A stretch of 64,000 nt of DNA, from positions 62,001 through 126,000 of the forward strand of contig CAXHJY010001173.1 in NCBI GenBank assembly GCA_964016885.1. The letters run 5' to 3'. The position numbers and the translations under genes are program-made. The notes beneath the pieces were generated by a model. That model did no database searches, was not told where the DNA came from, and saw only the letters and a list, made by a program, of their open reading frames with translations. The first letter of the stretch is position 1. Each line of letters opens with the position of its first letter. Origin of the DNA: Eledone cirrhosa (taxonomy: Eukaryota). Positions 33,845 through 63,546 of the stretch are shown here, piece after piece.

Positions 33845-34270
33845 ATTAATAAAAGTAATTCCAACTTTGTCTGATTTACTCGTTTTATTTAGAATCCTTT
33901 AAAATTATAATGATATCATAATGAAATAGTATGGTAGAATATTAAATGTTAAGTGTTAATTGAACAAGTACTTTCATGCTTTCGCAATCTTCAGGTTCAT
34001 AATGTGTGGTGACAGTCAAGTTTGCAATTTTCAACTGTTGAAAATTGCAAACTCGACTGTCACCACATATCATGAACCTGAAGATTGCGAAAGCATGAAA
34101 GTACTTGTTCAATTAACACTTAACATTTAATATTCTACCATACTATTTCATTATAATACCATTATAATTTTAAAGGATTGTAAATAAAACGAGTAAATCA
34201 GACAAAGTTGGAATTCCTTTTATTAATATAATCTTCTATACACAATCATACATACGTGTTTATTCATTTA
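33845..34270. mobile_element. Palindromic pLTR insertion (arms 191 bp, centre 34036, tail 34228-34270) with hammerheads on both strands
   Basis: Hammerhead UGAAC-CUGAAGA-U-UGC-GAAA-GCA-U-GAAA-GUAC-UU-GUUCA at 34073-34111 (+), mirrored at 33961-33999 (-). Confidence 0.9.
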
Positions 34271-34697
34271 TATATATATATGATGATGATGATGATGATG
34301 ATGATATATATCAAGTTTAATATAGAAATGGCCACTACAAGACTAGAACTGTTTCATTACAAATAATCATGAAAGCCGAGTAATAAACGAAGCTAAATTT
34401 TAAACATTTGACTTTTTATTTAACTTTATTTTATATATATTTATATATATATATATATATATATATATATATATATATAAAATATTAAAAAAATAATGAA
34501 TAAACAAAGAAACAGTTCCTTATATTAAACAAAAAAAGTTCATTATTTTACGATCGTTTCTAGGACATATATGTGTTAGAATTGGTATGCATATTCAAAA
34601 GATCTATGTACAAAATTATACAAACTATCAAAGAGAATATACATACCTTCACATATATATGCTGTCTTCAGAAATAATTATATATATATATATATAT

Positions 34698-35312
34698 GTA
34701 AAAGTTCTATTTAAATTGTTGGGATACAACAAGCAAATATTTTTATAACTGATATAAAGCACTCAACAAATATTTGGAGTAAAAACGTTCTCTCTCCTTT
34801 CTATGTCTCCTCTCTCTCTATCTTTTGCTCTCTGTTGTTCTGCTCTTTCTCTTTCTCCGTAACCCAACGGCTTATTTAAAAATATCCAATACTAACTTAC
34901 CTAATAATTGTTTCTACTTTAGGCACAAGGCCAGCAATTACCCAGTGCATTACTGGTACTTTATTTTATCGACCCTGTAAGGATGAAAGGCAAAGTCAAC
35001 CTCGGCGGGATTTGAACTCAGATCGTAAAGGGACGTAACTATGCTGGAAAGCATGGCGTCCGACCCTCTACCGATACTGCCAATCCACCGCCCTTACCTA
35101 ATAATATAAGTAAAGCTATAACCCAACTATCCACGAGCTTCCAACAGCAATGGTTGCATTCTTTAAGGGTATGTCAATATTTATTTATAAAACTGTTCTA
35201 TATTATATTTTATCTGATGAAAGCACACCATAATTTAACTTGGTGTCCTTGAAATATGTATAATGAAATAAATATGGTTTTATAAATATAGTTTCCATTT
35301 GTTAATATCGTA
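34698..35312. mobile_element. PLE family A insertion: tail only (-) joined to an inverted pLTR (+) with hammerhead 35208-35268; SINE nested at 34905-35093
   Basis: Matches 59449-59910 in two opposite orientations. Confidence 0.85.
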
Positions 35313-35389
35313 TATATATATATATATATATATATATATATATATATATATATATATATATATATACATATATATATGTATATATATAT

Positions 35390-59448: not shown

Positions 59449-62400
59449 GTAAAAGTTCAATTTAAATTGTTGGGATACAACAAGCAAATATTTTTATAAC
59501 TGATATAAAGCACTCAACAAATATTTGGAGTAAAAATACGATATTAACAAATGGAAACTAGATTTATAAAACCATATTTATTTCATTATACATATTTCAA
59601 TGACACCATGTTAAATTATGGTGTGCTTTCATTAGATAAAATATAATATAGATCAGTTTTATAAGTAAATAAATACTGACACACTCTTAAAAAATGCAAC
59701 CATTACTGTTGGAAGCTCCCGGATAGTGGAGTTGTAGCTTTAATTATATTATTATTAGTATTGAATATTTTAATTTTAATATTAAGCCGTTGGGTTACGG
59801 AGAAAGATAAAGATAAAGAAGGAGAGAGAGAAAGAGAGAGAGACCAAAACAGCAAAGAGAGAAAGATATATATAGAGAGAGGAGACAGAGAGAAGGGGAG
59901 AGAACGAAGTCATATCTTGTTGAGTTAACTTAACAGTTGAGATGAAATGAATAAATAAAATTAGAAATGTTAATAATCATGAATGGAATATACATATATA
60001 AAATGAGAAATTAACCATTGTTTAAATATGATTAGATGTTTAGTTAATCATTTAAAAATTGAGATCAATATATTAAAAATTGAGATCAATATATTAAAAA
60101 TTGGGATCTATATATTAAGAAATCCATATATTACTAGAGAACTACATATCATATAATACGTATACACACGCAAAAATACATATAAATATATATACACACT
60201 TATAAAATACATAACATATCTAACTACGTATATAATATATACACACAAAAAACAAAGGATTCTTTAATTTAATTTAAGATATAGGAATCTTATAAAATGT
60301 TATAATTGTTAAGATATTAAAGGAAATGTTATGTTATACACACTTTATGTTATTAAACAACATTTTTTTTATATAAGTTTTATAAGATTACCTGTTATGT
60401 ATTTATGGCTGTTATTATATGTCTATCTGTCACGAATCTTGGGATAATCACTATACATAAGTGCAATCAAATTGTATGGATATACGCGCATATGTATATA
60501 CACAATTCCCACATATACATATATATAAATGTACCCTCAACTAATAGGTAGATACGCATCACGTATACATATACATAGATACAGACATACATTCATAAAA
60601 ACGCATAAAATATATGTATGTCAATATACATATATACACACATATAGAGAGAAGTATATATAAATACAGTACATAGTATAATTGAGTACATAAAATACAA
60701 AAGAATTATATTACAATTTGGAAATACAATTATAAGCAATATAACTTTACAATACAATTTTAAAATATTATAGAATATTTTAAGTTATAATTTCAAAATA
60801 ATAGTATGTTTAATAGATTTAGTATAGAAATTTATTTTACGTATATTCAACTTAAAATTTTGAAAGGATAAACTTTCGAAAATAGGAGTAGCTATCAGAA
60901 CAATAAAAATAAGAAATATTTTCTCCTTTCAAGAGCTCTCAATATATTTCTCTAGAATAGTTTATTATATTTATATTTATTTATATTTAGGAAGAAAAGT
61001 TATTTTTACTTGAGTGTATAATCAGTCAGAAAAAGATGAAGGAATCTAATGATTTATCGACAGGTTCAATATATTAATAAAATTAATTATATACTACATT
61101 GTAAATTTATATTTATATTTAAACGTTGAGTTTAATCTATGACTGCAGCAACTGAATAAATTATTTCTTAAGTTCAGGGAATTTTTGGTCTTTAATATAA
61201 AGAACATTTCCTCTATACAAAGATCGCAATTTTCTGAAGATGAGTTAAAAGGAGTAGCTTATGAAATAATATTCCAAATCAACGAATATTCAACGTTCTT
61301 TAGTTTTAGGTCCCATAATAGGCTACATAGAGAAGTTGAAGATTTTTTGTTTGGATCTGTAAAATAATTTTTATGATTATTGAAGTGGGATTTAAACTCT
61401 GTGGAAGTAGATCTCACATAATTAAATGAATTTAAATTAGTTTTTACATTACAATTATATACTACATTTTTAGCTAAACAATTGTTATTTAACGGACAGT
61501 TAGATTTATTTCTACAGTTACATTTATCAAATTGGATATTGCTTGGGTTATTATTGGTATTTTGGTTAGGTTTTAAATTTCTATTATTAATTCTATTAAT
61601 ATTTTGCGCTAAATTTTTGGTGGAAGAATAAGTTAATTTTATAGTATGTCTATTAAAAAATTGAGTAATATCTATGTGTTCTAGGGAAGCATTTGTCAAG
61701 AGCTTTAAAAAATAGTTTAGCAATAGGGGTTTTAATATTTAATGAGAAAGGAGGAGCGAACCATAATATGTTCCTAGTTCTATTTCGGCTTTCGGAATTA
61801 ATGTAAGGTTTTCTATTATAGTTGTTAAAATTGTTACCATAGTTAAAATTGTTACGATTATGGTTAGTTGTTATATTATTATTATTATCGATGTATTTAA
61901 TTTTATTTCTATACCCAGCTCTACCTAACGCTTCGTTGTAATAATGTGCTTTTTCATCAAATATATTCTTATTAACTGAAATTCTCGAAATTCGTTCTTG
62001 TACAGAGTTAACTATAGTATTTTTAACGGATCTGGGTGATTAGAGTTAAAATTGACGTAATTTAAGTTCTCATTTAGTTTGTGAAATGGATAATGAAGAC
62101 ATGTGTTAAGATTTAGTGTTATATCTAGAAAATTAACAATTTTATGGTTATTCTCTATTTCTACTTTTAGATTAAGGTAATTAAAAAATTGTATAATTTG
62201 TTTTCTTTTTCTATTTAGTTCACAGTTATTATTTTCTATAAGTAAAAGCATGTCGTCACGATATAAACCTCCGGTTATCTCAGGTATTTTTCTATGTAGA
62301 GAATTAATTATAAATAGGCCCACAAGATCCGTTATCTTAGCGGAATCGGATGATCCCATAGTTATGTCGAAATTATTATTTCTATCTGCCCTAGTCCAGA

Positions 62401-63010
62401 GTTGGTTATTAAATTCTATTAATGTTTTCCGTGCCGATAATATAATGTGCATTTCATTGCTAGTTAGGTCTGTATGTTTAAATGCGTAAGTTAGTGCCTT
62501 ATTCAGTAGATTAGGAGTGATAGATGAGTAATAGTTAGCAATATCCAACTGAATAAACTTATTATTATAGTTATATTTAATTTCTTTAAACCAATCGATA
62601 ACTTCACTAGTTCCTTTCCATAATTTTAAATAAGATAAATTCTTAATTTGTGGTATTATTCTGTCTAGAATATTTTTGCTAAGTCTGCCAAGGTCCGATT
62701 TAGATGGTGCAATTAATCTGACTGGTAAATCAGTTTCGAAGTTCCTTTTATGATCCTTCATATTAATCTTAGGTTTCCTTGGCATGAAGGGTTGTGTCCT
62801 ATTTTCAATGCCTAGTTCATGCATTATATAAGAGGCATCTGTATTCAAATTTTCAAGGTCGTCTTTATTTGCTACTTTGTATTTCTTCCTTAATTCCTTT
62901 AATATAAGATCGTTATAATTGTCCTTTTGTATTCCGTAAAGATTATTGGTTTTGTCAGACTTGACTAGAATTTTCTCCGTTTTTTCCAAGTTTTCAATAT
63001 TATTTTTAAT
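59449..63010 (-). mobile_element. Large PLE (family A): RT 62012-63008, linker, GIY-YIG ~61100-61723, AT-rich 3' UTR, pLTR with hammerhead (59581-59641, core mutated) and tail
   Basis: KSDKTNNLY, KDHK.NF, LDIANYYSSI, ITMGS, GGLYRDD, NFLDITLNL; CNCRNKSNCPL..C..NVVYNC. Frameshifts and stops are present. The signature resembles the Hydra clade of PLEs (to be confirmed by phylogeny). Confidence 0.93.
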
Positions 63011-63086
63011 ATATATATATATATATATATATATATATATATATATATATATATATATATATATATATATATATATATATATATAT

Positions 63087-63546
63087 GCAAAAGTTCTATT
63101 TAGATTGTTGGGATACAACAAGCAAATATTTTTATAACTGATATAAAGCACTCGACAAGTATTTGGAGTAAATATACGATATTAACAAATGGAAACTATA
63201 TTTATAAAACCATATCTATTTCATTATACATATTTCAAGGATACCATGTTAAATTATGGTATGCTTTCATCAGACAAAATACAATATATACCAGTTTTAT
63301 AAATAAATATTGACATACCCTTTCAAAATGCAACCGTTACTTTTGGAAGATATCACTATCCCTGATGTCTTCCAAAAGTAACGGTTGCATTTTGAAAGGG
63401 TATGTCAATATTTATTTATAAAACTGGTATATATTGTATTTTGTCTGATGAAAGCATACCATAATTTAACATGGTATCCTTGAAATATGTATAATGAAAT
63501 AGATATGGTTTTATAAATATAGTTTCCATTTGTTAATATCGTATAT
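63087..63546. mobile_element. PLE family A palindrome (arms 184 bp, centre 63359, tail 63087-63171) with hammerheads 63219-63279 (-) and 63439-63499 (+)
   Basis: Near-perfect inverted repeat with a 7-nt loop ctatccc; same boundary as 49334 and 35312. Confidence 0.92.

What the first reader, a model, noticed from the sequence alone, without database searches (positions are those of the whole stretch)
33845..63546. A class of ORF-less, ribozyme-bearing palindromic insertions in (TA)n, made by many Penelope-like families with one shared architecture
Seen: at least nine long inverted repeats (33845-34227, 39448-39565, 40035-40225, 41241-41502, 41643-41888, 49334-49955, 50495-51455, 54449-54865, 56567-56885, 63172-63546), each in or next to a (TA)n tract, from about seven sequence families. 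In each, one arm runs on into a 40-110 nt tail, the other stops at a family-fixed TA-like site, and the centre is variable, often with a loop of only 0-7 nt. Most include a type I hammerhead, so both strands can encode a self-cleaving RNA. Established: PLEs carry hammerheads in their pseudo-LTRs and often have an inverted, truncated 5' pLTR. Inference: these are extreme products of PLE integration in which both ends of a break in the self-complementary (TA)n target are used, or the nascent cDNA folds back. The result is compact hairpin elements that would yield long dsRNA with ribozymes on both arms and may be mobile as non-autonomous units. I cannot tell whether this class has been described at this density.
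Basis: partly seen in the sequence, partly recalled or inferred. Interest (0 to 1): 0.85.

Follow-up and report, generated by a model that had tools for sequence, protein, structure and literature searches.

The report
Hairpin insertions from Penelope retrotransposon ends
The ten palindromes are short, gene-less insertions made of the ribozyme-bearing ends of Penelope-like jumping elements, in an arrangement already described for this group; they were likely built anew at each TA-repeat site by copying the element's RNA from both sides of the DNA break, which would explain a long-unexplained feature of how these elements insert.

Summary
All ten inverted repeats are real and belong to seven families. 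Each is a head-to-head pair of Penelope-like element (PLE) ends: one arm keeps the tail, the other stops at a family-fixed TA-like site. This architecture is published (PMC8557442, PMC3846280), and this scan reported such hairpins twice in sharks. Families A, C and E belong to PLEs with Hydra-clade motifs, B to a Neptune-like PLE; F is a 469-bp retrozyme-like tandem unit. New here: hairpins are the main product of family A (22 of 30 young tailed copies), with centres differing between loci. The untailed arm reaches further inward in 14 of 22, some products have non-overlapping halves (one with a target duplication), and joints carry microhomology or templated filler. This favours twin priming from both ends of the break over fold-back or movement as a unit. 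Intact hammerheads lie on both arms in 5 of 10, but a read-through RNA is predicted to bury them in the hairpin. Evenly spaced sampling suggests about 100,000 such hairpins genome-wide.

The parts
33845..34255 (.). Family B hairpin: untailed arm 33845-34038, tailed arm 34034-34255; minimal type I hammerhead on each arm (+34072, -34000)
39369..39565 (.). Family C hairpin, tail on the left, arms end at or inside the hammerhead; no complete ribozyme
40035..40282 (.). Family G hairpin, tail on the right; right arm has a 28-nt deletion; hammerhead core on left arm with mismatched stem II closure
41241..41566 (.). Family D hairpin, tail on the right; intact hammerhead on both arms
41643..41913 (.). 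Family B hairpin truncated next to the hammerhead cleavage site; no ribozyme
49252..49958 (.). Family A hairpin, tail on the left; intact hammerhead on both arms
50418..51457 (.). Family E hairpin (older, arms 91% alike, 245-nt centre), tail on the left; degenerate hammerhead core
54449..54975 (.). Family F insertion from a 469-bp hammerhead tandem unit (retrozyme-like): untailed arm 279 nt, tailed arm about 135 nt plus tail
56480..56890 (.). Family C hairpin, tail on the left; intact hammerhead on both arms; untailed arm reaches 10 nt further in, 3-nt microhomology
63090..63549 (.). Family A hairpin, tail on the left; intact hammerhead on both arms; untailed arm reaches 9 nt further in, 2-nt microhomology
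34698..35318 (.). Family A non-palindromic two-part insertion: tail only (ref 1-83) joined head-to-head to a long untailed arm, with a SINE-like repeat inserted at about 34905-35090
44662..44914 (.). Family A non-palindromic two-part insertion: untailed arm (ref 83-259) joined head-to-head to a tail piece (ref 2-67)
59449..63008 (-). 5'-truncated family A PLE: RT (62012-63008), linker and GIY-YIG-type EN (61109-62036), 3' UTR, hammerhead-region arm and tail; broken by frameshifts or stops
   Evidence: tblastn to the L228 ORF, 60% identity, E 6e-123
45988..48300 (+). Family E inverted untailed arm followed by a 5'-truncated Hydra-like PLE ORF (46454-47368) whose 3' end does not match the family E arm

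Best explanation
The palindromes are gene-less, 5'-truncated insertions of Penelope-like element ends, likely built anew at each site by twin priming: the element's endonuclease would cut both strands of a (TA)n tract and reverse transcriptase would extend both free ends on the element's RNA. One end would start at the tail tip, the other at a TA-like site 30-110 nt further in, where the (TA)n end can anneal. Both cDNAs would run toward the RNA 5' end, and host end-joining would fuse them head-to-head. When both stop early, often near a family hot spot that may be the transcription start, the product is an ORF-less hairpin; when one runs on it gives the textbook PLE with an inverted pseudo-LTR; when the tail cDNA stalls before the second site the product is not palindromic. 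Shown: architecture, fixed outer ends, variable centres, family links, joint signatures. Inferred: double-strand cutting, two primings, host joining, hot spot = transcription start.
For: (1) Of 90 head-to-head pairs in families A-D, 88 are one tailed plus one untailed arm and 2 have two tails; untailed end fixed in 28 of 30 (A), 8 of 9 (B), 33 of 39 (C), 11 of 12 at 67-70 (D) (most queries contained the tail). (2) Query blind to the centre: 22 of 30 family A copies are hairpins; untailed arm longer in 14, tailed in 3, equal within 2 nt in 5; 21 distinct centres (my count of its table). (3) Non-overlapping products: L148, L153, L163 and two in the window; L153 has an 11-14 nt target duplication. 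(4) Untailed arms occur alone in (TA)n (L147, L155, L164) and once joined to another family's untailed arm (L149, A+C). (5) Continuum with ORF-bearing elements: L136, L137 (A), L131, L132 (E); in L131 the untailed arm carries the ORF and the tailed arm is the inverted one. (6) Microhomology of 2 nt or more in 39 of 49 filler-free joints against 17-23% in random joins (10 of the 39 are one query-selected family C joint, and BLAST overlaps include some with mismatches); 7 of 10 distinct fillers tested (of 16 of 8 nt or more) are templated from nearby element sequence. (7) Arms share 53 variants against 3.7 expected if drawn independently (82 loci; 6 come from L024), fitting one template used twice. 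(8) In vitro, an anole PLE cleaves and extends both strands, starts at two internal sites that bound the tail, and is predicted to be a dimer (PMC11167929). (9) In L228 the tail lies 53 nt before an intact 809-aa ORF, so the arms are the RNA's 5' region; family B has TATATAAG about 25 nt before its hot spot.
Against: Palindromes can lose central sequence after insertion, which could also make the untailed arm look longer and leave microhomology. Shared arm variants fit fold-back or later gene conversion equally well; 127 variants are on one arm only, 27 of them at family-polymorphic sites. Ten family C loci share one identical centre (selected by my query; 0 other loci with it among the 30 of a centre-blind query). 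In family B hairpins are only 6 of 30; 16 of 30 are short with no inverted partner. No TATA-like motif at the expected distance in A, C or D. In long elements the inverted arm runs past the hot spot. Target duplications are unreadable in most (TA)n sites. Families D and G were not tied to an ORF. The heterologous join is a single clear case and could be a nested insertion.
Confidence: 0.7

Rival explanations
1. One cDNA starts at the tail, stops, folds back on itself and copies its own arm out to the TA-like site (or an antisense RNA self-primes, as proposed in PMC3846280); later central deletions reshape the loops.
For: Shared private variants between arms; microhomology at centres; many loops of 0-10 nt; self-priming is the published reading of palindromic inverted junctions.
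Against: A copy arm cannot outreach its template, yet the untailed arm is longer in 14 of 22 against 3 of 22, a bias that symmetric deletion would not give; non-overlapping products, solo untailed arms, the A+C join and L131 each need an extra large deletion.
Confidence: 0.17
2. The hairpins are non-autonomous elements that are transcribed and retrotranspose as whole units.
For: Ten family C loci with an identical centre and 4 more sharing a second centre; pairs with identical joints in A (L017/L028, L288/L289).
Against: 21 distinct centres in 22 family A hairpins; the family C cluster was selected by the query and sits at a 3-nt microhomology beside the hot spot; flanks differ after the (TA)n; no shared asymmetric arm variants among those ten, though the family is too young for much power.
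Confidence: 0.08
3. The palindromes arise after insertion by host DNA repair (break-induced inverted duplication) or as long-read fold-back artefacts.
For: L024 shows an inverted duplication that includes flanking DNA.
Against: The second arm stops at a family-fixed site and lacks the tail in 88 of 90 pairs; flanks are not inverted; short reads from other samples show the fixed end and opposite-strand joints.
Confidence: 0.05

Closest known systems
Complex insertions of EN+ Penelope-like elements: inverted 5'-truncated copy plus tail (Craig et al. 2021, PMC8557442; Arkhipova et al. 2013, PMC3846280)
   Same: Head-to-head inverted copy, tail at one end only and on either arm, hammerhead in the pseudo-LTR, microsatellite targets, palindromic junctions, target duplications where readable.
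   Different: Here the ORF-less hairpin is the commonest product of family A; tails reach 80-110 nt against 30-40 in those papers; non-overlapping and cross-family products are not mentioned in the passages I read.
Hydra clade of C-terminal EN+ PLEs (PMC8557442)
   Same: L228 ORF: RW motif, DKT, CxCx5C linker, no CCHH in the EN core, CxxC and CxH near the end, hammerhead, (TA)n targets.
   Different: RWT instead of RWK in L228; no tree against reference Hydra proteins was built; the paper's text and supplement hits I saw list no cephalopod Hydra (2 of 4 'Octopus' hits seen, both Naiads).
Non-LTR retrozymes (Li et al., bioRxiv 10.64898/2026.07.22.740005)
   Same: Family F: 469-bp ORF-less tandem unit with a type I hammerhead, as monomers and partial multimers.
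   Different: Family F inserts with two fixed ends and inverted arms like the PLEs; two consecutive intact cores were not found in the loci sampled.
L1 twin priming (recalled, no call)
   Same: Both ends of the target break prime cDNA; halves are joined by microhomology, giving an inversion.
   Different: In L1 the second primer anneals at variable internal sites and the halves do not overlap; here both start sites are fixed and the halves usually copy the same stretch, giving a palindrome.
MITEs and foldback DNA elements (recalled, no call)
   Same: Short, ORF-less, long inverted arms, AT-rich targets, high copy number.
   Different: Ends are asymmetric, centres differ per locus, and arms are retroelement ends with a ribozyme.

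Membership tests
EN+ Penelope-like element insertion | Arms contiguous with a PLE RT and C-terminal GIY-YIG EN ORF in other copies | tested here: met
   A: window 59449-63008, L136, L137; C: L228, L229, L231; E: L131, L132; B: EN in L142 (Pfam GIY-YIG E 1.2e-6) and RT-like ORF in L134. Pfam gave no hit for the L228 ORF; atlas neighbours carry HTH_animal, GIY-YIG and RVT_1 at scores 0.96-0.98. Not shown for D, G, F.
EN+ Penelope-like element insertion | Inverted 5'-truncated copy head-to-head at the 5' end | tested here: met
EN+ Penelope-like element insertion | Tail at one end, lying upstream of or in the ORF start in partial tandems | tested here: met
   88 of 90 pairs have one tail; tail ends 53 nt before the ATG in L228
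EN+ Penelope-like element insertion | Type I hammerhead motif in the pseudo-LTR | tested here: met
   Intact in A, B, C, D, F; core present in G; degenerate in E
EN+ Penelope-like element insertion | Ribozyme self-cleavage | not testable with these tools
   needs in vitro transcription
EN+ Penelope-like element insertion | Target site duplication | tested here: inconclusive
   Clear in L153 (11-14 nt), plausible in L064; unreadable in pure (TA)n
Hydra clade (families A, C, E) | DKT, RWK-type motif, CxCx5C linker, no CCHH, CxxC and CxH at the EN end, (TA)n target | tested here: met
   Read from the L228 ORF and partial A and E ORFs against the description in PMC8557442; RWT in place of RWK
Hydra clade (families A, C, E) | RT phylogeny places it inside Hydra | not tested
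   no reference proteins were fetched
Neptune clade (family B) | CX2-5CxxC linker plus CCHH in the EN | tested here: inconclusive
Non-LTR retrozyme (family F) | ORF-less tandem unit of a few hundred bp with a type I hammerhead | tested here: met
   469-bp unit, longest ATG ORF 63 aa, intact core in 13 of 20 motif matches
Non-LTR retrozyme (family F) | Two consecutive units with complete hammerheads; circular RNA | tested here: inconclusive
   Two consecutive motifs only in L251-L253, both with a mutated core; RNA not testable
Non-autonomous element moving as a hairpin unit | Same centre and both ends recur across loci | tested here: not met
   21 distinct centres in 22 family A hairpins; family C cluster is query-selected

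The most novel reading that the evidence does not exclude
Two-ended twin priming from two fixed RNA sites is the general integration route of Penelope-like elements. It explains the inverted pseudo-LTR and the one-sided tail in one step, can join cDNAs of two different families, and is used by retrozymes too. In this genome it has laid down about 100,000 ribozyme-bearing hairpins, a large dispersed source of potential double-stranded RNA, and, if centres are transcription starts, of divergent promoter-ribozyme cassettes.
Probability: 0.45. Interest if true: 0.75.

Novelty: new variant of a known kind. Interest (0 to 1): 0.5.

Why it matters
The papers read call the PLE transposition cycle and the origin of inverted pseudo-LTRs and tails undefined (PMC8557442, PMC11167929). 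Thousands of young, short hairpins record both priming sites and both stop points of each event, so they make competing models directly countable; the counts here favour twin priming over the published self-priming idea. The hairpins are also abundant: 14 head-to-head hammerhead hairpins in 400 kb, about one per 30 kb. They are likely mis-annotated as MITEs or unknown repeats, and in introns they would form long dsRNA, potential substrates for A-to-I editing or RNA silencing (untested).

Tried and rejected
Rfam scan: only miRNA-like matches to simple repeats and hairpins in the 150 rows shown, no hammerhead. The repeat finder was swamped by a 49-bp satellite. Pfam found nothing in 4 window ORF pieces or the L228 ORF; no solved structure below E 0.67. 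Two own-genome searches with short AT-rich family C queries returned nothing, so family C has no tail-plus-outer-arm sample. Idea that the two arms of the 50495 hairpin come from different subfamilies: both arms hit largely the same best copies at 89-94%; it is simply older. Idea that hammerhead-cleaved RNA sets a second stop point, prompted by 39448 and 41643: 0 of 30 family A tailed arms end within 10 nt of the site, 2 of 30 in B; not supported. Idea that the inverted arm always ends at the hot spot: false in L131, L132, L136, L137. Family E gave 0 pairs because its arms lie further apart than the script's 60-nt limit. Expression and editing: no RNA holder listed. The raw reads were dominated by an older related subfamily and listed few symmetric hairpin joints. 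A protein alignment failed on a frame error and was not repeated. Literature searches listed no paper on ORF-less PLE hairpins as a class or on twin priming in PLEs; subscription papers and Repbase are outside the library.
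Full report
Observation. Self-BLAST of the window with simple repeats masked recovers all ten listed inverted repeats, with arms 91-100% alike. They fall into seven families, here A (49334, 63172), B (33845, 41643), C (39448, 56567), D (41241), E (50495), F (54449) and G (40035). In each, both arms read as element sense from the centre outward. One arm continues into a tail of about 30-110 nt; the other stops beside (TA)n in 9 of 10. Six have loops of 0-7 nt. An intact type I hammerhead is on both arms in 5 of 10, on one arm with a mismatch at 54449, partial or degenerate at 40035 and 50495, and absent at 39448 and 41643; 0 of 60 shuffled arms scored.

What the arms are. The window is C1200:62001-126000 of a 3.0-Gb assembly. 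Searches there gave 415 to 3851 first-look candidates per family, of which 40 were scored each time. The same ends flank PLE ORFs: family A at window 59449-63008 and in L136 and L137, E in L131 and L132, C in L228, L229 and L231, and B beside a GIY-YIG ORF in L142. L228 is a partial tandem whose tail ends 53 nt before an intact 809-aa ORF. That ORF shows the motifs given for the Hydra clade in PMC8557442 (passages): DKT, an RW motif, a CxCx5C linker, no CCHH, CxxC and CxH. Family B's endonuclease looks Neptune-like. Family F is a 469-bp ORF-less hammerhead tandem unit, retrozyme-like, that inserts with the same two kinds of end and inverted arms. D and G were not tied to an ORF.

Fixed ends, variable centres. 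Among 90 head-to-head pairs found in 175 loci of families A-D (duplicates removed; E gave none within the 60-nt limit), 88 are one tailed plus one untailed arm, with the untailed end fixed in 28 of 30, 8 of 9, 33 of 39 and 11 of 12. Several of those queries reached into the centre or contained the tail and so bias the sample. A query of only tail plus outer arm gave, for family A, 22 hairpins, 6 long copies and 2 short unpaired copies of 30, with 21 distinct centres; for family B, 6 hairpins, 8 long and 16 short unpaired of 30. Inner ends cluster at family hot spots (A 262-278, B 217-224, C 241-259, D 191-206, partly query-selected), and family B has TATATAAG about 25 nt before its hot spot, while A, C and D show no such motif at that distance. 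Ten family C loci share the window's centre, but my query contained that joint; none of the 29 other loci from a centre-blind query had it.

Mechanism. A fold-back copy cannot outreach its template and cannot add a tail it lacks. In the unbiased family A set the untailed arm reaches further inward in 14 of 22, the tailed arm in 3. Tail pieces joined to untailed arms with no overlap occur at L148, L153 and L163 and twice in the window (34698-35318, 44662-44914); L153 is framed by an 11-14 nt target duplication. Untailed arms also occur alone in (TA)n and once joined to another family's untailed arm. Filler-free joints have 2 nt or more of microhomology in 39 of 49 against 17-23% at random (with the caveats given under evidence), and 7 of 10 distinct fillers tested are templated. 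The arms share 53 variants against 3.7 expected for independent templates, while 127 are on one arm only. This fits two cDNAs primed from the two ends of one break, mostly on one RNA or one source, then end-joined. It matches the in vitro behaviour of an anole PLE: both strands cut and extended, two internal start sites bounding the tail, predicted dimer (PMC11167929, parts 1-2 of 4 read). That PLE RT lacks RNase H, which would let one RNA be copied twice, is recalled, not tested. The main rival is fold-back followed by central deletion; it cannot be excluded but needs a one-sided deletion bias.

Ribozymes. A transcript running across a hairpin meets the antisense arm first and holds one sense hammerhead. 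Folding of five full hairpins predicts 98-100% of hammerhead bases paired to the antisense arm, so self-cleavage is expected only for RNAs starting near the centre. No RNA run was listed, so nothing is shown on expression or editing.

Artefact and density. Raw Illumina RAD reads of three samples from one study show the family A fixed end followed by (AT)n in 5437-8036 reads per run and joints between opposite strands, several linking an arm to a short tail piece; these reads mostly come from an older subfamily and do not test the window's own junctions. In 40 evenly spaced 10-kb stretches, 52 inverted repeats were called (some overlapping), 12 matching families A-G and 16 with a loose hammerhead motif; of 15 distinct motif-bearing ones, 14 have it in the head-to-head orientation, against 3 of 1640 shuffled palindromes. 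That extrapolates to roughly 100,000 genome-wide; the window is several-fold denser than this average.

Relation to what is known. Inverted 5'-truncated copies, a tail at either end, hammerheads and (TA)n bias are described for PLEs (PMC8557442, passages, and 5 supplement hits; PMC8969392, passages). Palindromic inverted junctions were read as self-priming (PMC3846280, passages and Discussion). Retrozymes were derived from PLE pseudo-LTRs (bioRxiv 10.64898/2026.07.22.740005, part 1 of 5 and passages; its supplements are closed). An octopus repeat annotation lists recent PLE insertions without mention of palindromes in the passages read (PMC13282606). Nine searches listed no paper on ORF-less PLE hairpins as a class or on PLE twin priming, but the library lacks most subscription papers and Repbase. 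This scan noted the same kind of hairpin in two shark windows; those notes pointed me to PMC3846280 and are not independent support.

Verdict. A real and abundant feature; a variant of known PLE insertion structure rather than a new class of mobile unit. Its value lies in the joint statistics, which favour twin priming (0.7) and make the PLE integration question testable. Interest 0.5.

Noticed in passing
window 50155-50197: A 43-nt inverted copy of the family E tail tip lies across a 220-nt (TA)n tract from the tail of the 50495 hairpin; possibly an abortive third priming.
   Followed up: no
window 45988-48300: Family E inverted arm and Hydra-like ORF, but the 3' end does not match the family E arm; possible two-family composite.
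   Followed up: partly
L149 (G000:C15, near 30922300) and L337 (G000:C2:13271500-13278500): Cross-family head-to-head joins: untailed A with untailed C at both hot spots; tailed B with an unrelated Hydra-like ORF element.
   Followed up: partly
L324, L325, L329, L331, L332: Family B has a third fixed start for inverted arms at ref 109, in 5 of 30 copies.
   Followed up: no
L228:3544-5973: Intact 809-aa Hydra-type PLE ORF in a partial tandem of family C, a candidate active source.
   Followed up: partly
L342-L381 (evenly spaced 10-kb stretches): Several more hammerhead hairpin families unrelated to A-G, such as those in L345, L351/L355, L357/L368, L362/L377/L378 and L364.
   Followed up: partly
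window 19664-25289 and 26867-28071: A 49-bp satellite (115 copies, 96% alike, partly self-complementary) and a 48-bp tandem array related to a dispersed repeat.
   Followed up: no
window 1775-2022 and 13802-14758: Two further inverted repeats with no hammerhead found in the first and no link to families A-G; the first sits beside an RT fragment, the second is built from a common dispersed repeat.
   Followed up: partly
window 36905-38929, 31003-31845, 57723-58530: Fragments of other non-LTR retrotransposons with endonuclease and RT-like ORFs; the SINE-like repeat at 33660-33845 recalls octopus repeats (recalled, untested).
   Followed up: no
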